DNA of 64,000 nucleotides from an uncultured delta proteobacterium. Lineage in GTDB: Bacteria; Desulfobacterota; Desulfobacteria; Desulfobacterales; JAFDCJ01. The DNA lies in assembly GCA_963769935.1 (NCBI GenBank), contig CAVYNY010000018.1, positions 224,001 to 288,000 of the forward strand, written 5' to 3'. The first letter of the stretch is position 1. Each line of letters opens with the position of its first letter. The notes under the pieces were generated by a model. The model saw nothing but the letters and a program-made list of their open reading frames with translations. It made no database searches and was not told the origin of the DNA. Made by a program: the position numbers and the translations under genes. Of this stretch, positions 3,520 to 62,961 are shown one piece after another.

Positions 3520-3577
3520 GAAAAACCGGGAATCTCTACTTTTTACGATTTCATCAATAACTAATAGCAAACAACCC

Positions 3578-5659
3578 TCAACCGGCTTTGTAAACCCGGC
3601 ATACAAGCCCGCGCAGGTTGGCGCTGCCCATGGCCGGATCGTGGGGCGGCGAGCTGTCGGTGAGCAGATTTAAATTGGCTTCCTGCCACCCGTAGAGTTC
3701 GGTGGGCCCTTTTTCCGGAAACCACCAACCGAAGGCCGCGACCGCCACCCGGCGATCGAGATCGGCATTTAGCCGCAGGGTTTGCCGGATCTTGCCCCGC
3801 GGGGTTTCGATGTGCACCCGATCCCCTTCCTCCAGGCCGAGTTTGGCCGCGGTTTCAGGATGCAGCTCCACCAGGGGCTCCGGCGAAAGTTTACGCAGGC
3901 TTGGGATGTTGCGATGGCTGGCGTGGTAGAAAAACGGATTCTTGCTGCTGGTGAGCACCAGGGGAAATTCAGATGTCAACTCCGGCGAGCCGAAAGGCGT
4001 CAGCCTTGGCTCGGCGAATACCGGCAGCGGATCGATGCCCATCTCCCGCAGCGGTTCGGAAAACAGCTCCACCTTGCCGGAACGCGTGGCAAATCCCCGG
4101 GCTTCGAACTTTCGGTAATGATGTTCGACGCAATAAATTCCCAGGTTCTTGAGTTGATCATAGTTCAAACCGGCCGGTGCCAGAACGGCATCCAGGGCAG
4201 CTGACTCGTCCCGCCAGAAATATCGGCCGAATCCCATCCTAGCGGCGATCAAATTGATCCACTGCATATCCGAGCGGCACTCGCCGGACGGTGCAATAAT
4301 TCTGGGACGCGCCACCACACAGCCGCGATGCTGCAAGAGATCATCATATTCCAGGTGAGCGGCCACCGGCAGCACGATGTCGGCCATGGCAACCGTAGGG
4401 GTCATAAAAAGGTCGGCGACCACCATAAAATCCAGCTTTTGAAACGCTGCAAAAGTTTCCTGAGCGCCGGCATATGTCAGCAGGGGATTGCTGCCGAAGA
4501 TCAGGCCCGCTTTGAGCGGGTAAGGCTGTTGCGAAAGAATTGCCTTGCTGGCTTCCTGGCTCGGCACAAAACCGGCCTGGGCGGCCAGCTTGAACCGGCT
4601 ACCTGGTCCGGCGGGGAGGGTCCGGACGGATTCGCAGTCCTGACAGAATTCGGCACCACTCAACAGTGGAACGTTGTCCGGAAAAGCAGCGCCACCGGGA
4701 ACATCCAGATTCCCGGTAAGCGCCATCAAAATAGCAACCGCCCGGCAGGCCTGAAAAGCGTTGCTGGTCTGGTCCAGGGCATTTCCCCACTGAATGGCAG
4801 CAGGCTTGGCGGCGGCAAACAGCCGGGCGGCCTGTTCAATAAGCGATTGCGGCACCCAGGTTTTTTCCGCCACTTCAGCGGGCGGGTACGCCGCGATGAA
4901 ATTTTTGAAACGGTCAAAACCAACCGTCCATTCTTCGACAAAGCCGGCGTCATAAAGCTTTTCATTTATGATTACGTTCAGCATACCCAAGGCCAGCAGG
5001 CCGTCACTGCCGGGTCTGGGTTTGAGCCAGAGTTCGGCTCTCGCGGCCAGCGCAATTTTCCTGGGATCGATCACGATGAACCGGGTGCCCTTGTCAAACG
5101 CTGGACGGAATTGGCCCGGCGATCCGTCGCCGCCGGTTTGCAGAGAATTTCTGCCCCAGACGATGATGCATTGCGGCGGATGCTCGTAGTCAGGAAACGG
5201 CATGTCGCCGAATGTATAGCGGGCGGCCGTCGTTCTGGGCACATGGCAGTTGTTGTCCACACTTACCGTGTTGGGTGTTCCCAGGACCCGGGCAAATCTC
5301 TGGATAAAATCTCGCTCAAGCCCGCGATAGGCACCGACGTAAAGCAGGATGGACTCCGGCCCGCAATTTTCGGCATAGCCCTTGAGCTTGCCGGCAAGGG
5401 TCTCCAGGGCCTCATCCGTCGATATCGGCTGCCATCGATCCGCACCTTTGCGGCCGATTCGTTTTAACGGCACTGTCAGCCGATCCGGATGATACAACAG
5501 TTCAGGAAGCGCGCGGCCCTTGGGGCAGATGACGCCCCGGTTGAAGGGGCAATCCGGATCGCCCTTGATGTGCGTGATCCTTTGGCCTTCCAGGGTCACC
5601 AATATACCGCAGGTGCCGCTGCAAAGCCGTGCGCAAAAAGACTTGACGGTCGTCTCCAT
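3578..5659 (-). CDS. Mo/W-bisPGD oxidoreductase (DMSO reductase family, acetylene-hydratase-like clade), no signal peptide
   Basis: 693 aa; N-terminal CxxxCxxxC...CPKG 4Fe-4S motif, HPDRLTVPLKR, VIDPR, PRPGSD, ADIVLP, C-terminal molybdopterin dinucleotide-binding domain. Confidence 0.9.
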   Translation of the reverse strand: METTVKSFCARLCSGTCGILVTLEGQRITHIKGDPDCPFNRGVICPKGRALPELLYHPDRLTVPLKRIGRKGADRWQPISTDEALETLAGKLKGYAENCGPESILLYVGAYRGLERDFIQRFARVLGTPNTVSVDNNCHVPRTTAARYTFGDMPFPDYEHPPQCIIVWGRNSLQTGGDGSPGQFRPAFDKGTRFIVIDPRKIALAARAELWLKPRPGSDGLLALGMLNVIINEKLYDAGFVEEWTVGFDRFKNFIAAYPPAEVAEKTWVPQSLIEQAARLFAAAKPAAIQWGNALDQTSNAFQACRAVAILMALTGNLDVPGGAAFPDNVPLLSGAEFCQDCESVRTLPAGPGSRFKLAAQAGFVPSQEASKAILSQQPYPLKAGLIFGSNPLLTYAGAQETFAAFQKLDFMVVADLFMTPTVAMADIVLPVAAHLEYDDLLQHRGCVVARPRIIAPSGECRSDMQWINLIAARMGFGRYFWRDESAALDAVLAPAGLNYDQLKNLGIYCVEHHYRKFEARGFATRSGKVELFSEPLREMGIDPLPVFAEPRLTPFGSPELTSEFPLVLTSSKNPFFYHASHRNIPSLRKLSPEPLVELHPETAAKLGLEEGDRVHIETPRGKIRQTLRLNADLDRRVAVAAFGWWFPEKGPTELYGWQEANLNLLTDSSPPHDPAMGSANLRGLVCRVYKAG

Positions 5660-8674: not shown

Positions 8675-8831
8675 GGAATGGATTCTTATTTTAAAGAAAA
8701 TAATTGGATAGGATCAACAGGATCGTTAGGATCAGGCGGCCTTCAGCCGAAAGGCCCCTCTCCGCAGGCGAAAAAATTCCTGATAATCCTGTTAATCCTG
8801 TCTAAATAAAAATAAAATTCGAATCCATTCC
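8675..8831. repeat. Nested inverted-repeat element (MITE-like)
   Basis: Outer IR GGAATGGATTC/GAATCCATTCC; inner tandem (ACAGGAT)n and (ATCCTGT)n arms; central GGCCTTCAGCCGAAAGGCC hairpin. Confidence 0.7.
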
Positions 8832-17571: not shown

Positions 17572-17598
17572 CGAGCATACCTGCAATTAAATTCAGTA

Positions 17599-17730
17599 TG
17601 GAATAATGGAATGATGAAAAAATGGAATATTGGTTATAAGCAGCGGATGACATCCTGATTTTAATTTCTGATAAGATCTACCAGTATAAAAATAGATTTC
17701 ATTCCCCCAAACCCATTATTCCAATACCCC
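17599..17730. repeat. Short-period repeat/inverted-repeat element between livH and livM
   Basis: TGGAATAATGGAATGATG...TGGAATATTGG with complementary arm CCCATTATTCCAATACCCC. Confidence 0.65.
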
Positions 17731-24597: not shown

Positions 24598-24748
24598 TTG
24601 ATCCTCCTTTTTTCGGGTAAGTTGTTGTTTGTCTGTCGTCTGTTTTCAAAAAGTCATCAAACCATTTTGGTTCCGGCTCGTCCGGGTTATGTTATAGATT
24701 CGATATTTTTTTCACAACTTACGACTAACAACTCACAACACGCTCATT

Positions 24749-41967: not shown

Positions 41968-42026
41968 AATCACGAAAGGACGAAAATACGAAAAAGAGAA
42001 AAGATAAATTTCGTGTTTTCGTGATT
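41968..42026. repeat. Inverted-repeat element built from CACGAAA-type units
   Basis: AATCACGAAAGGACGAAAATACGAAA ... TTTCGTGTTTTCGTGATT. Confidence 0.65.
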
Positions 42027-56790: not shown

Positions 56791-56867
56791 CACCTTACCC
56801 TGAAACAAGTATTAATTATGTCTTTATCTGAGATTTTTTATTTAACCGTTAATTGAAGGAACGAAAT

Positions 56868-57362
56868 ATGTTCGGCATCGGCATGCCTGAAATGATTTTA
56901 ATTCTGGCCATCGCATTAATCGTCATCGGCCCCAAAAAATTGCCGGATCTGGCCAAGTCGTTGGGCCGTGCAATGCGAGAGTTTAAAAAGGCAACCAACG
57001 ATTTTAAAGAAACGATCCAGATCGACAGTGAAATGGCCGACGTCAAAAAGGCGTTTAATGATATCAATGAGGATGTCAAAGAAGCGGTAGATCTTAAACC
57101 CGATCAGAAGGATAAATCGAGCGCCGGGACAAAAGTCGATGGCGAAAATAGTGAAAAGCCACAGGATGTCCCTGAATCCGCATCTGATGAATTTGAAAAC
57201 CTGAAAGATTTAAAAAATGCCTACGATGGTCTGAATTCAAATTCAAACCTATCCGCCACGGATGAAAACACAGCCGTCGATGAAACCACACCGGTCGATG
57301 AGACGCCGGCCGATGATGAAAACAAAAAAGATAAGCTAAAAGGATCCATAGATAATGCATGA
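56868..57362 (+). CDS. tatB: Twin-arginine translocase TatB (TatA/B family)
   Basis: MFGIGMPE...GPKKLP, long acidic tail, directly upstream of tatC. Confidence 0.8.
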   Translation: MFGIGMPEMILILAIALIVIGPKKLPDLAKSLGRAMREFKKATNDFKETIQIDSEMADVKKAFNDINEDVKEAVDLKPDQKDKSSAGTKVDGENSEKPQDVPESASDEFENLKDLKNAYDGLNSNSNLSATDENTAVDETTPVDETPADDENKKDKLKGSIDNA

Positions 57363-59071: not shown

Positions 59072-59932
59072 TCAAGCCGCCAGCTGCAAAACGACACCGG
59101 CCCAGCCCGCCTCGGTCCCCCTCCAGCGGCAGAACCACTGTTTTTCGGCATAAAACTGCAGCAGATCATTCAGCTCCAGGGTCCTGATGCCGGATATCAC
59201 CAGCACCCCGCCGGATGCGGTCAGTGAACTCAGCTGCGAACGCAACTGGTTCAGACTTGGATAGCGCAGATTGGCAGTGACCATCCGGAAGCGATCGTGA
59301 ATAGCCTCCAGGGGACGCCCGGATATTTCAATCCGATTCTCCAGCGCATTTAGCCGAACATTTTGGCGGGCTTCGGCCAGAGCGCACTCATCGAAATCGA
59401 TGCCAAGCCCGGCCGCAGCTCCCAGACACACTGCTGCGATAACCAGCACCCCCGAACCGCAGCCCACATCCAGAACTACGGCGCGGGAAAAACTGCTTCC
59501 GGCACATTGCCGCCGCAGCACCATCTCGATTCCCCGCAGCGCCAGCCGGGTGGTCGGATGCCGGCCGTCGCCGAAAGAAGCGCCGGGCTGAATCTGCACC
59601 ACCGCCTCATCCGGTCCGGGGAAAAAACTGTGGCCCGGAGGGTGCAGCACCACAAACTGCGATACTCTCCGGGGTCGATTAAAAGACAGCTCCAGATAGG
59701 TGGAACCGAATTGATAGGTGTATGCAAGCTCCCCGTCCGAAACCAGATTCCGGATAACGGCCTTGATCTGTTTTCTTGCCAGCCCATATTTTTCAGACAG
59801 GCTTTGGCCGAGAACGGACGGTGTTAATTTGGCGGGCGATACTGCGATCGCAGCGGTTATATACCTGCGGATCTGATATTCGGCCAACCGTTTCGGGTCA
59901 TCACCGGCGGTTTTTTCTGAACTGGATTGCAT
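59072..59932 (-). CDS. PrmA-like SAM-dependent methyltransferase with an atypical N-terminal domain (start uncertain)
   Basis: PGASFGDGRHPTTRL, VLDVGCGSGVL, ANL, ISGI motifs. Confidence 0.75.
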   Translation of the reverse strand: MQSSSEKTAGDDPKRLAEYQIRRYITAAIAVSPAKLTPSVLGQSLSEKYGLARKQIKAVIRNLVSDGELAYTYQFGSTYLELSFNRPRRVSQFVVLHPPGHSFFPGPDEAVVQIQPGASFGDGRHPTTRLALRGIEMVLRRQCAGSSFSRAVVLDVGCGSGVLVIAAVCLGAAAGLGIDFDECALAEARQNVRLNALENRIEISGRPLEAIHDRFRMVTANLRYPSLNQLRSQLSSLTASGGVLVISGIRTLELNDLLQFYAEKQWFCRWRGTEAGWAGVVLQLAA

Positions 59933-61436
59933 TGCGAACGAGGCCCCGGGCCCATTGCGGCGTACCGAGTGCATGTATATGGGTATAGGTGGCAAGAACA
60001 TTTTTGTAAACAATACCATCGCGATCTTTCTCAATCCCTTCACCCCGCTGCATGCGAAAGACCAGATCGCACTTTCCTGCCTCCAGTTTTGACACGCGGG
60101 AGTAGTGAAACTCATGGCCCCGGATCTCGGAGCCGACATCGAAGTAAGGATTTTCGGCGACCACCCGGACCACGGTGTATCCATGGCCCTGAGGTCGTTT
60201 ATAAAAATCAAAGGTCACCGGCAAAATTCCGACCATCGGATGGGATTGGCCCTCCAACACGAGGCGCTCTCCCAGATACATCAACCCGCCGCACTCGGCA
60301 TAGATGGGAAATCCTTCACCGGCCAGGGCCTTGAGTTGGGCATTGAAGTTTTTATTGTTCGCCAGCTGCCGGGCATGGGTTTCGGGAAAGCCGCCGCCGA
60401 TATAAAGCGCGTCCAGGTCGGGCAGTTCTTGATCGATCAGCGGGCTGATAAATACGATTTCAGCGCCTCCCCGGACAAGCGCATCGATATTCTCCGGATA
60501 ATAAAATTGAAAGGCCGAATCCCGGATAATCCCGATGCGAGGTGATGGGTTCTCGATGCTGGATACTCGATGCTGGTCGCCGGATGCTGGTCCCTGGATG
60601 CTGGATGCTCGATGCTGGATACTGGACGCCGGTCGCTGAATGCTGGTCGCCGGCTTTTGATCTTTGATCTCTGGCTCCTGTCCTCTGTCTTCTGTCTTCT
60701 GTCTTCTGCCCTCTGTCCTCTGTCCCCTGTCCTCTGTCTCAAAAACAGGAGCATTTTGAGCAATCTTGACAATGCCGTCAAGATCAAGGTGTTTTTCGCC
60801 AATCTTCGTAATCGCTGCAATCGCATCCTGGGCCCAATCGTGTTCAGCAGTGGGCACCAGCCCCAGGTGGCGCTCGGGAAAGAGCTGGTCGCCGAGCTTG
60901 GGTATGGCGCCGAGCACCGGGACGCCGCAATAGTGCTCAACGCTTTCCCGCAGCTTTTTCTCATGCCGCGCGTTGGCCACACGATTGAGAATAATGCCTT
61001 TGATCATGACGTGCGGATCAAATTGAATGCAACCCGAAACAACAGCCGCCATCGTGCGGGTCATTTTTGTGCAATCCACACACAAGATCACCGGACAATG
61101 GAGCAGTTTGGCGAGCTCAGCCGTACTGGTACTGCCTTCGAGGTCGATGCCGTCATACAGGCCGCGATTGCCTTCGATAACGGAAAGATCAAAATTGGTG
61201 GAATGCGATAAAAAGGAGTTTAAATTGGCTTGCGGGCTTAAAAGGAAAGAATCCAGATTATAGCAGGGATGGCCGGCGGCAAGGGCCAGCCATCCCGCAT
61301 CAATATAGTCCGGACCTTTTTTAAAAGGAGCAACCCTTTTACCCCGATTGCTCAAAGCAGCAATGACGGCAATCGATAAGATGGTCTTTCCCGACCCGCC
61401 GCGCAGGGCGGCAATGATTATTCTGGGAAATTCCAT
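59901..61436 (-). CDS. dsrN: Cobyrinate a,c-diamide synthase homologue (siroheme amidase DsrN) with a repeat-derived linker insertion
   Basis: GGSGKT, FKKGPDYIDA, EGNRGLYDG, ERHLGL; GATase domain AFQFYY, GGGFPE, AECGGLMYL, GHEFHYS; follows dsrABD. Confidence 0.9.
   Translation of the reverse strand: MEFPRIIIAALRGGSGKTILSIAVIAALSNRGKRVAPFKKGPDYIDAGWLALAAGHPCYNLDSFLLSPQANLNSFLSHSTNFDLSVIEGNRGLYDGIDLEGSTSTAELAKLLHCPVILCVDCTKMTRTMAAVVSGCIQFDPHVMIKGIILNRVANARHEKKLRESVEHYCGVPVLGAIPKLGDQLFPERHLGLVPTAEHDWAQDAIAAITKIGEKHLDLDGIVKIAQNAPVFETEDRGQRTEGRRQKTEDRGQEPEIKDQKPATSIQRPASSIQHRASSIQGPASGDQHRVSSIENPSPRIGIIRDSAFQFYYPENIDALVRGGAEIVFISPLIDQELPDLDALYIGGGFPETHARQLANNKNFNAQLKALAGEGFPIYAECGGLMYLGERLVLEGQSHPMVGILPVTFDFYKRPQGHGYTVVRVVAENPYFDVGSEIRGHEFHYSRVSKLEAGKCDLVFRMQRGEGIEKDRDGIVYKNVLATYTHIHALGTPQWARGLVRNAIQFRKNRR
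60552..60739. repeat. Two heptamer tandem-repeat tracts inside dsrN
   Basis: (CTGGATG/CTCGATG)n at about 60552-60655 and (CTCTGTC/TTCTGTC)n at about 60672-60739. Confidence 0.85.
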
Positions 61437-61505
61437 ACCATCCGACTGCATTGATGACTGTTTGAAAATCAGAATAAAACCTAACCGGCGGTTGTAAAAA
61501 GCTTA

Positions 61506-61745
61506 CTATTCTTCGTGTTCGGCCGACGCCTGTTTTCCGGCGCCTTTCAGTCCATACATGGAGGTACTCCCGCTGGACCAGTACTCGAGAATTCCCTCCG
61601 TTACCATTTGATTTACCAGCTTTTTGGCTTCCCGGGGCTTTAGTTCAAGAATTTTGGAAAGGTCGTTAAAATAAAATTTGCTCTTGGATTTGGATTTCTT
61701 TTCCAGGGCTTCAACAATCTTGCTTTTTGCTTCCGCGTAATCCAT
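61506..61745 (-). CDS. dsrD: Dissimilatory sulfite reductase D
   Basis: KSKFYFNDL, LEYWSSGSTSMYGLKG signature. Confidence 0.96.
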   Translation of the reverse strand: MDYAEAKSKIVEALEKKSKSKSKFYFNDLSKILELKPREAKKLVNQMVTEGILEYWSSGSTSMYGLKGAGKQASAEHEE

Positions 61746-61815: not shown

Positions 61816-62961
61816 CTAAAACTTGAATTGTGAAGTGTGGCGCCAGGTGTAGTAGGCCGGATCACGGAAATCATCAATCAAATGATGAGTGAATTCCAGA
61901 TCACATTTCTCAAAGAAGCGCTCCCATCCGATCCGCTCGGCCCAATCACCCAGACGCTCATATTTGCGTGCACCTTGGGAATAGGCTTCCACGATTTTCT
62001 TGATGGTTGCGGTAGTCTGCGGCCAGCGCGGTGCCTCATTGGGAATAAAGGCAACCACAACCTTGGAAAACTTCGGTGTGCTGATGCGATTGGACACTTT
62101 CCCGCCGGCCATAATAACGATGCCATCGCCTTGGGTGTCGGCCAATGGCATGGAGGGGCACATGGTATAGCAGTTGCCGCAAAACATGCAGCGATCATTA
62201 TTGACAGCCACGCTGTTGAGCTTTTTACCGCCGACCTCCACCTTGGCCGGTTTGATGGCTGCCGTCGGGCAGGCCGCAATCGCCAGCGGAATTTCGCACA
62301 TCTTGTCCAGGTATTCATGGTCCAGCAGGGGCGGTTTGCGGTGATATCCCAGAATAGCGATATCCGAGCAGTGAACCGCACCGCACATGTTCAGGCAGCA
62401 GGCCAGCGATACCCGCAGGTGGGCCGGCAGCCTGTGGTTTTTGAAGTCGTCGAACAGCACATCCATGGTGGCTTTCACCGGACCGGAAGCATCTGTGGCC
62501 GGTGTGTGGCAGTGGATCCAACCCTGGGTGTGCACGATGTTGGTAATACCGGCACCCGTGCCGCCCACCGGAAATTTATAGCTGCCGCCGGCAAATTTGC
62601 GGCTTTCAAGGTCCTGAACCAACGGTTTGACCTTGTCTTCACTGTCCACCATAAATTCGACGTTATTGCGGGTGGTAAACCGTACATACCCGTCGCAATG
62701 TTTTTCAGCGATCTCACAAATTTCACGAATGTGGGTCGTGCTCATCAAACGGGCACCGCCGACGCGGATACTGTAAACTTTGTCGCCGGATTCGGCCACA
62801 TGATAATAAACGCCGGGTTGAATGTATTCGTGATACAGCCAGGTGCCTTTATTTTTGGCAATCACCGGCGGATAAAATTCGTCAAATTTTCTCGGACCGA
62901 TGTCGCTGATGCGGTTTTCCATCGGTTTGTCAGGATTATAGCCTGAAGATACAAATGCCAT
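61816..62961 (-). CDS. dsrB: Dissimilatory sulfite reductase beta subunit
   Basis: [55 protein letters not shown]. Confidence 0.98.

What the first reader, a model, noticed from the sequence alone, without database searches (positions are those of the whole stretch)
60552..60739. Heptamer repeats translated in frame inside dsrN
Seen: about 190 bp of two 7-nt repeat types sit between the ATP-dependent synthetase domain and the glutaminase domain of DsrN. They encode 7-residue-periodic peptide (TEDRGQRTEGRRQKTEDRGQ...SSIQHRASSIQGPAS...HRVSSIE) with no stop codon. Similar short-period repeats elsewhere in this window are intergenic. Inference: a repeat element has invaded or expanded in a tolerant linker of a core sulfate-reduction gene, adding about 60 aa. 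Because the unit is 7 nt, only gains or losses in multiples of three units keep the frame, so the tract is either length-constrained or a potential on/off switch for the GATase domain.
Basis: partly seen in the sequence, partly recalled or inferred. Interest (0 to 1): 0.7.

Follow-up and report, generated by a model that had tools for sequence, protein, structure and literature searches.

The report
Heptamer repeats rewrite DsrN's linker
A 189-base run of 7-base repeats, of a kind that fills this bacterium's intergenic DNA, sits in frame between the two domains of the sulfate-reduction gene dsrN and is likely translated as a floppy tether that relatives keep rewriting, so it is likely tolerated filler rather than an on/off switch.

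Summary
The tract is real: 27 heptamer units in one register (60549-60737, minus strand), 63 codons, no stop. Contigs from two studies span it without gaps. It lies in the predicted disordered linker of DsrN (dsrA-dsrB-dsrD-dsrN), about 45 residues longer than non-repetitive orthologues. This genome holds about 1,000 arrays of 7-9-nt units, mostly intergenic and strongly polarised: G-rich arm first, C-rich arm second, usually not complementary. The linker copies that layout and is not a hairpin. All 19 spanning linkers of the genus carry heptamer units, with different units and lengths; 18 are in frame, and the exception is a one-base indel in a genome with another frameshift. Overall 32 of 32 clearly periodic linkers are in frame, whereas 42 of 64 neuO alleles, a true heptamer switch, are out of frame. 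Units kept in the linker are stop-free and almost all polar. Verdict: tolerated, fast-evolving repeat filler under selection for frame and polarity; a switch is not supported. The scan reported this kind of insert before in other genes, including two kinases of this genome. New here: unpaired arms that keep the intergenic polarity.

The parts
59901..61436 (-). dsrN coding sequence, a CbiA/CobB-family a,c-diamide synthase. The start is likely the ATG at 61436; the ORF finder starts at 61451.
   Evidence: (TIGR00379 463.6 bits, cut-off 261.4); synteny with dsrABD
60549..60737 (-). Heptamer tract: 27 units, 63 codons, residues 235-297 of P0001, predicted disordered linker
   Evidence: pLDDT below 50 only at residues 239-244 and 249-294
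60675..60737 (-). G-rich left arm, 9 units of ACAGA(A/G)G type, peptide TEDRGQR/TEDRRQK. In intergenic DNA this orientation lies just after stop codons.
60654..60674 (-). Three transitional units in the same register
60549..60653 (-). C-rich right arm, 15 units of CCAGCAT/CCGGCGA/CGAGTAT type, peptide SSIQHPA-like. It is not complementary to the left arm.
59964..60539 (-). Glutamine amidotransferase domain (GATase_3); Cys383, His487 and His489 of P0001 are invariant in 72 aligned proteins
61506..61745 (-). dsrD
   Evidence: Pfam PF08679, E 1.2e-30
61816..62961 (-). dsrB
   Evidence: TIGR02066 485 bits
62974..64000 (-). dsrA, 3' part (runs off the window)
   Evidence: TIGR02064 450 bits

Best explanation
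The tract is an in-frame copy of this lineage's intergenic 7-base repeat arms that is likely translated as a disordered tether between the two DsrN domains and is likely kept by purifying selection rather than used as a switch. Shown: the genome holds hundreds of such arrays laid out G-rich arm then C-rich arm; the linker has the same layout; relatives carry different units and lengths at the same site while staying in frame; the units kept are stop-free and polar. Inferred: the arms grow, shrink and change unit by slipped-strand mispairing and recombination in 7-nt register. A single-unit slip would truncate the glutaminase domain and be purged, because DsrN is thought to be needed for the siroheme-amide cofactor of DsrAB. 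Because 7 is not divisible by 3, a pure array gives the same cyclic 7-residue peptide in all three frames, so compensated or 21-nt changes leave the linker's character unchanged. Selection against hydrophobic peptide likely explains why this linker pairs a left arm with a non-complementary right arm: the true complement of the left arm would read PLSSVLC.
For: Genome-wide counts: 595 period-7, 321 period-8 and 133 period-9 arrays, against at most 17 for any other period from 4 to 12; 536 of 595 heptamer arrays are intergenic by my own gene calls. Polarity: adjacent intergenic arrays run G-rich then C-rich in 119 pairs and the reverse in 3; only 36 of 119 are complementary within 1 mismatch. 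The order holds in tandem, convergent and divergent gaps (109 GC, 2 CG, 2 GCG), and 2469 array-free gaps show no skew. Linkers: 29 of 32 periodic linkers are more G-skewed in the first half, against 52 of 93 others. Frame: 32 of 32 periodic and 124 of 125 all linkers are in frame; the MutL linker is likewise repeat-filled and in frame in 14 of 14 loci. Peptide filter: all 24 exactly repeated unit types in 19 genus linkers are stop-free and 23 have negative hydropathy, whereas only 19% (G-rich strand) and 26% (C-rich strand) of 536 non-genic arrays are both stop-free and polar. Structure: the AlphaFold model has mean pLDDT 88, and only the linker is below 50. Unit supply follows the genome: G021 has 0 right-arm triplets genome-wide and no TCCAGCA arm in its linker, while G015 has 231 and the longest such arm. 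The label needs 8 changes on a 121-row tree, at least 5 forced by strong branches, so the site was colonised or cleared several times.
Against: Translation is not shown. There are no proteomic data, and no listed RNA contig spans the tract; one from run X7 enters only its first 33 nt. Contigs drop rare variants, so low-frequency slippage is not excluded. One genus member (G020) is out of frame. Relatives are not independent, and the 80 metagenome loci were the best-scoring of 595, which favours in-frame genes. Repeat load is not sufficient: G037 has 472 right-arm triplets but a short non-periodic linker. The hydropathy contrast counts related unit types and compares short exact doublets with longer arrays. 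Slippage alone does not explain the G-then-C polarity or the preference for 7-9-nt units.
Confidence: 0.8

Rival explanations
1. Phase-variable switch like neuO: gain or loss of single heptamers turns the glutaminase domain off and leaves a synthetase-only protein that could use free ammonia.
For: In silico, loss of one or two units gives a stop at residue 336 or 326 of 516, inside the GATase domain. Heptamer switching inside a coding sequence exists (neuO, PMC13001214, passages). G020 is out of frame within the tract.
Against: 32 of 32 periodic linkers are in frame, against 42 of 64 neuO alleles out of frame. The longest perfect run is only 25 nt. G020's shift is one extra base (an 8-nt unit), and its mutL is also split by a frameshift outside any repeat, although the other genes in 19 kb around its dsrN are intact. 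No indel was listed in 8 runs. dsrN is conserved across Dsr-containing genomes (PMC10504309, passages).
Confidence: 0.05
2. Scar of a repeat-flanked cassette: a small gene such as a four-helix-bundle protein, flanked by a G-rich arm and a C-rich arm, once inserted here or donated its arms, and the middle was lost in frame.
For: Of 7 PF05635 genes in this genome, 5 clearly and 1 probably lie between a G-rich arm upstream and a C-rich arm downstream, judged by eye. The one on contig C20 uses the same GGATGCT/CATCCAG family as the linker's right arm. In G044 a PF05635 gene at C32:32180-32497 is bracketed by the left-arm family. All 22 other genus genomes carry PF05635.
Against: Arms around those genes are complementary, while the linker's are not. 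None of 125 linkers holds a gene or exceeds 166 aa anchor to anchor. About 1,000 arrays far outnumber 7 such genes. G055 has a periodic linker and no PF05635 match.
Confidence: 0.08
3. Adaptive linker: the long polar tether tunes coupling between the glutaminase and synthetase domains or offers a binding surface, and the repeats supply length variation.
For: Periodic linkers are longer (median 103.5 against 73 aa anchor to anchor) and persist through the genus. The order basic/acidic half then Ser/Gln/Pro half recurs.
Against: Length runs from 83 to 166 aa within one genus with no conserved peptide. A metagenome member of the same clade has a short non-periodic linker (L063). The order of the halves is already explained by the DNA polarity seen in non-coding gaps.
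Confidence: 0.05
4. Translated hairpin or palindromic element acting at the RNA or DNA level (RPE-like), as in several earlier scan notes.
For: 36 of 119 intergenic arm pairs are complementary. One other family's dsrN linker (L039) has semi-complementary arms. Small palindromes have entered relatives' linkers.
Against: Folding z-score is +0.43, and 131 of 200 shuffles fold as well. The left-right duplex is -17 kcal/mol, weaker than 296 of 300 shuffles (mean -24), against -139 for a true complement.
Confidence: 0.02

Closest known systems
Heptameric long simple-sequence repeats of bacteria: GGGAATC in Xanthomonas and GGGGA(C/T)T in Nostoc (Rehm et al. 2015, PMC4692102; passages and section 10 read)
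   Same: 7-nt units, about 90% intergenic, close behind the upstream ORF, often in convergent pairs, fast length change, a few copies inside ORFs.
   Different: There one unit family dominates and paired arms are true inverted repeats. Here dozens of 7-, 8- and 9-nt families coexist, arms are mosaics, and most arm pairs are not complementary although polarity is kept.
TAACTGA repeats of Beggiatoaceae, cyanobacteria and Bacteroidetes (MacGregor 2015, PMC4679880; passages read)
   Same: Oriented heptamer arrays whose stop-codon content decides which strand can lie in ORFs; one set lies in a variable surface loop of an RNA polymerase beta-prime-like protein.
   Different: Those sets have 2-6 copies of one unit in the main genome studied, mostly just upstream of start codons. 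Here 27 units form a whole interdomain linker in a genus-wide hotspot, with evidence for a polarity filter as well as a stop filter.
neuO of E. coli K1, phase variation by an AAGACTC heptamer tract (PMC13001214; passages read)
   Same: A heptamer tract inside a coding sequence where only multiples of three keep the frame.
   Different: neuO is a phage-borne surface-modification gene with one repeat unit at its 5' end, and 42 of 64 alleles are off. This tract is degenerate, internal, in a core gene, and in frame in 32 of 32 periodic cases.
Rickettsia palindromic elements (as summarised in PMC10969869; passages read)
   Same: An intergenic repeat read in frame inside unrelated housekeeping genes.
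   Different: RPEs are about 150-bp elements with a conserved peptide. This tract is not palindromic and has no conserved peptide or fixed length.
Borg tandem repeats in ORFs (PMC9879509; abstract read)
   Same: Rapidly evolving tandem repeats that create disordered protein regions.
   Different: Borg repeats give perfect amino-acid repeats in archaeal extrachromosomal elements; here degenerate 7-nt units sit in chromosomal core genes.
DsrN, the CbiA/CobB/CfbB-family amidase of siroheme (PMC10504309; passages read)
   Same: Domain order, conserved residues and position behind dsrABD.
   Different: The linker is about 45 aa longer than typical and repeat-derived.

Membership tests
DsrN | CbiA/CobB-family a,c-diamide synthase with synthetase and GATase domains | tested here: met
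   TIGR00379 and NF002204 above cut-off; PF01656 and PF07685; fold matches GatD and CTP synthase
DsrN | Encoded with dsr genes and distinct from the cobalamin CbiA | tested here: met
   Order dsrA-dsrB-dsrD-gene; a second homologue at 32% identity lies on contig C4; dsrB and/or dsrD lie beside it in 17 of 19 genus loci
DsrN | Amidates siroheme | not testable with these tools
   Function taken from PMC10504309
Bacterial heptameric long simple-sequence repeats | Tandem 7-nt units far above chance | tested here: met
   Lag-7 identity 0.70 against a maximum of 0.44 in 2000 shuffles
Bacterial heptameric long simple-sequence repeats | Dispersed genome-wide, mostly intergenic, oriented | tested here: met
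   595 arrays, 536 intergenic; orientation bias
Bacterial heptameric long simple-sequence repeats | Rapid length change between relatives | tested here: met
   83-166 aa across 19 genus linkers; pairwise indels
Phase-variable SSR locus (neuO type) | Long, near-perfect tract of one unit | tested here: not met
   Longest perfect run 25 nt; mosaic of units
Phase-variable SSR locus (neuO type) | Out-of-frame alleles common among genomes | tested here: not met
   1 of 125 linkers out of frame, by one base
Phase-variable SSR locus (neuO type) | Repeat-number heterogeneity within a population | tested here: inconclusive
   Only contigs were available; no indel listed in 8 runs, 2 contigs span the tract
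RPE / REP-like palindromic element | Palindromic, forms a stable hairpin | tested here: not met
   z +0.43; arm duplex weaker than 296 of 300 shuffles
RPE / REP-like palindromic element | Dispersed copies of the whole element with conserved length and peptide | tested here: not met
   BLAST hits in the genome pile up on each arm separately, with few across the junction; peptides differ between relatives

The most novel reading that the evidence does not exclude
The arrays are written by an undescribed, direction-specific process rather than plain slippage. G-rich units would be added to the 3' ends on both sides of a DNA break or hairpin loop and the ends then joined, like a telomere fusion. 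That would give a G-rich arm followed by an independently grown C-rich arm of another unit, the layout seen in 119 of 122 opposite-skew intergenic pairs and in the DsrN and MutL linkers. The DsrN linker would then be a protein-coding record of a repeat-writing machine in sulfate reducers that keeps creating new disordered protein sequence. No enzyme was identified, and decay of ancestral hairpin arms explains the same layout.
Probability: 0.07. Interest if true: 0.85.

Novelty: new member of a known kind. Interest (0 to 1): 0.36.

Why it matters
It shows non-coding repeat DNA becoming protein sequence inside a core sulfate-reduction enzyme, with a ready series of 19 natural linker variants in one genus. 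It separates two filters (stop codons and hydrophobicity) that act on which repeats can enter genes. The strict G-rich-then-C-rich order of unpaired arms is a measurable constraint on the unexplained origin of bacterial heptamer repeats. In practice, these tracts break short-read assemblies of dsrN (G002) and can be mistaken for switches. The phenomenon itself is known from other bacteria and from earlier notes of this scan.

Tried and rejected
Hairpin: rejected. Assembly artefact: rejected. Read-level heterogeneity: all 8 runs laid are contigs. X3, X4 and X6 do not cover the tract with a spanning piece, and X8 covers 60466-60716 with no difference, so this is uninformative on rare slippage. 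RNA runs X5 and X7 hold dsrN pieces, but none listed spans the tract; two X5 joints that skip parts of it (60522-60710, 60620-60668) have short sides at 85% likeness and were not used. No solved relative was found by sequence at E up to 1e-10; the fold search found only GatD, CTP synthase and Pdx2-type matches, so the linker's place rests on the model. Reverse transcriptases (10 matches) and Y1 transposases (11 matches) exist in the genome, but I did not link them to the arrays. Five metagenome loci with long match spans were checked and show no insertion in the linker. The maximum-likelihood tree did not finish; FastTree was used, leaving out 8 of 129 loci that lacked anchors or enough flank. 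Six of the 55 genomes with a dsrN match were not fetched (G028, G029, G040, G047, G048, G057). The 2007 survey of prokaryotic simple repeats by Mrazek and colleagues is not held and is known to me only by recall and through PMC4692102. Searches for this case in print listed no paper on heptamer arrays in DsrN or Desulfobacterales linkers, or on their link to four-helix-bundle genes. I saw only listings and abstract openings for those hits, no supplements were read, and most subscription journals are not in the library.

Full report
Observation. Window 60549-60737, read on the minus strand, is 27 consecutive 7-nt units in one register: 9 of ACAGA(A/G)G type, 3 transitional, and 15 of CCAGCAT/CCGGCGA/CGAGTAT type. 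It is 189 nt, 63 codons, without a stop. Lag-7 identity is 0.70, against at most 0.37 elsewhere in the window and 0.44 in 2000 shuffles. Tandem Repeats Finder reports both arms. A contig from run X1, possibly the source, and one from run X2, another study, span the tract with 1 and 3 substitutions and no gap; X8 covers most of it without a difference.

The gene. The ORF scores above cut-off for CobB/CbiA models and has PF01656 and PF07685 domains on either side of the tract. It follows dsrA, dsrB and dsrD, and a separate 32%-identical homologue lies on contig C4, so it is dsrN by synteny and homology. DsrN is described as the siroheme amidase and as highly conserved in Dsr-containing genomes (PMC10504309, passages). 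An AlphaFold2 model on a 72-sequence alignment has mean pLDDT 88, and only residues 239-244 and 249-294 fall below 50. The glutaminase cysteine and histidines are invariant (their catalytic role is recalled).

Orthologues. Of 61 genomes searched, 55 matched; I took linkers from 49 of them and from the best 80 of 595 metagenome matches. Of these 129 loci, 125 gave both anchors. Thirty-two are 7-periodic at z of 4.5 or more against codon shuffles, and all 32 are in frame and stop-free; 92 of the other 93 are in frame. In the genus, 19 genomes span the linker. Eighteen pass the periodicity threshold; the nineteenth (G020, z 3.8) shows heptamer units by eye and is the only out-of-frame case. Its shift is an 8-nt unit, one extra base. 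Its mutL is also frameshifted outside any repeat, while neighbours in 19 kb are intact, so an assembly error is likely but not shown. G002's contigs break inside the tract, and 3 of 22 genus relatives gave no match. Genus linkers measure 83-166 aa anchor to anchor, against 118 here and a median of 73 (65-119) in non-periodic orthologues. Long non-repetitive linkers exist (67, 54 and 53 aa by the inner measure), so the site is permissive in general. On a FastTree tree of 121 rows the periodic state needs 8 changes, at least 5 forced by strong branches. Close pairs differ by 21, 24, 81 and 0 nt, and one gained a 42-nt palindrome offset by losses elsewhere (gap placement in repeats is ambiguous). 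Among 26 in-frame lengths, 11 share one class modulo 21 (nominal p 0.001, kin not independent), which suggests that three-unit steps dominate.

Genome context. The genome has 595 period-7, 321 period-8 and 133 period-9 arrays, against at most 17 for other periods from 4 to 12. With my own hexamer-based gene calls (6487 genes, 76% coding, so approximate), 536 of 595 heptamer arrays are intergenic. Ten lie deep inside 8 genes, and none of 321 octamer arrays does. Besides dsrN these are the MutL linker, receiver-domain loops of four hybrid kinases and two polyketide-synthase-type genes. The MutL linker is repeat-filled and in frame in 14 of 14 loci. Both arm families of the DsrN tract are common in the genus (21 and 18 of 22 relatives) and patchy in 38 other families (13 and 5). 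Supply broadly matches use, but G037 has a heavy load and a plain linker.

Polarity. Arrays sit G-rich on the sense strand just after stop codons (197 against 25 for heptamers) and C-rich before starts (108 against 26). Adjacent opposite-skew intergenic arrays run G-then-C in 119 cases and C-then-G in 3, yet only 36 of the 119 pairs are complementary within one mismatch, 6 more within two. The order holds in tandem, convergent and divergent gaps, and array-free gaps have no skew. The DsrN tract follows it: its first arm is in the orientation found after stop codons (8 against 0) and its second in the opposite role (10 antisense against 0 sense after stops). Twenty-nine of 32 periodic linkers are more G-skewed in their first half, against 52 of 93 others. 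The arms do not pair. Four-helix-bundle (PF05635) genes lie between such arms in 5 or 6 of 7 cases in this genome, one of them with the linker's right-arm family.

Peptide filter. All 24 exactly repeated unit types in the 19 genus linkers are stop-free in the coding direction and 23 encode polar peptides, whereas 19% and 26% of 536 non-genic arrays are both stop-free and polar on their G-rich and C-rich strands. The units are related, so this is a strong trend, not a p-value. The complement of the left arm would encode PLSSVLC; it was not among the 24 types.

How it most likely works. Shown: a polarised repeat system in intergenic DNA, the same layout in this linker, rapid turnover, and conservation of frame and polarity of the peptide. 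Inferred: slippage and recombination in 7-nt register generate variants; single-unit slips would stop translation at residue 326-336 of 516 and are purged; in-frame, polar variants drift. Confidence 0.8. The switch model fails two defining tests, and neuO, a real heptamer switch, is off in 42 of 64 genomes (PMC13001214, passages); 0.05. A scar of a repeat-flanked cassette gets 0.08, an adaptive linker 0.05, a functional hairpin 0.02.

Comparison and novelty. It is a member of the bacterial heptameric simple-sequence repeats (PMC4692102, passages and section 10; PMC4679880, passages). It works like an RPE or a Borg repeat in turning repeat DNA into protein (PMC10969869, passages; PMC9879509, abstract), but it is not palindromic. 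Searches listed no paper on this locus. Earlier scan notes describe the same kind of insert in hemW, hisF, mtaB and two kinases of this genome; they are unchecked AI notes and gave me the leads to MacGregor 2015 and neuO. What this case adds is a genus-wide series in a core sulfate-reduction gene and the finding that polarity persists without complementarity. Verdict: new member of a known kind, interest 0.36.

Noticed in passing
G000 genome-wide: G-rich 7-9-nt arrays sit in the left half of intergenic gaps (82% of 376) and C-rich ones in the right half (82% of 359), whatever the orientation of the flanking genes. Cause unexplained.
   Followed up: partly
G000:C19:110854-112701 (L054) and L138-L151: The MutL interdomain linker carries the same G-arm then C-arm heptamer layout across the genus, in frame in 14 of 14 loci. 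A mismatch-repair gene colonised by slippage-type repeats is notable.
   Followed up: partly
L004, L007, L009, L022, L050 (dsrN linkers); L138, L140, L142, L149, L151 (mutL linkers); G000 C11, C35, C41: Three kinds of 30-45-nt GC-rich palindromes recur inside heptamer arms. Two kinds occur in both dsrN and mutL linkers in frame, and one is a clean 42-nt insertion in L004 against L003. They look like REP-type elements that target the arrays.
   Followed up: partly
G000 C19:30648, C16:12869, C11:329909, C20:251437, C9:239319, C13:92588: Four-helix-bundle (PF05635) genes are bracketed by a G-rich arm upstream and a complementary C-rich arm downstream, each gene with a different 7-9-nt unit.
   Followed up: partly
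G000 C10:573173-582003, C35:132988-136257, C38:26871-29063, C17 near 200181: Receiver-domain loops of hybrid kinases carry in-frame heptamer arrays just before the PIIAMTAH strand; two were reported earlier by the scan.
   Followed up: partly
G000 C3:25679-39232 (L051, L052): Two polyketide/PUFA-synthase-type genes have short in-frame heptamer arrays in interdomain linkers.
   Followed up: no
G000 genome-wide: None of 321 octamer arrays lies deep inside a gene, although 24-33% are stop-free and polar; 10 of 595 heptamer arrays do. The difference may be chance or reflect unit age.
   Followed up: no
L093:2607-2622 and 3543-3706; L090:3319-3468; L129; L130: L093 has a frameshift inside the GATase domain and a duplicated 3' piece; L090 has a duplicated 3' piece; L129 and L130 have a second CbiA-like gene next door.
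   Followed up: no
window 8772-8805, 17598-17633, 24712-24741, 41972-42004: Short intergenic arrays of period 9, 8, 7 and 8; this contig has a below-average array density (6.7 per 100 kb).
   Followed up: no
window 59072-59932 (-): A PrmA-like methyltransferase (below the family cut-off) with a long N-terminal extension follows dsrN and overlaps its stop by my gene call.
   Followed up: no
window 57261-57301: An 18-nt repeat lies inside the acidic tail of the tatB-like ORF 56853-57362 (label by recall); it looks like a peptide-level repeat.
   Followed up: no
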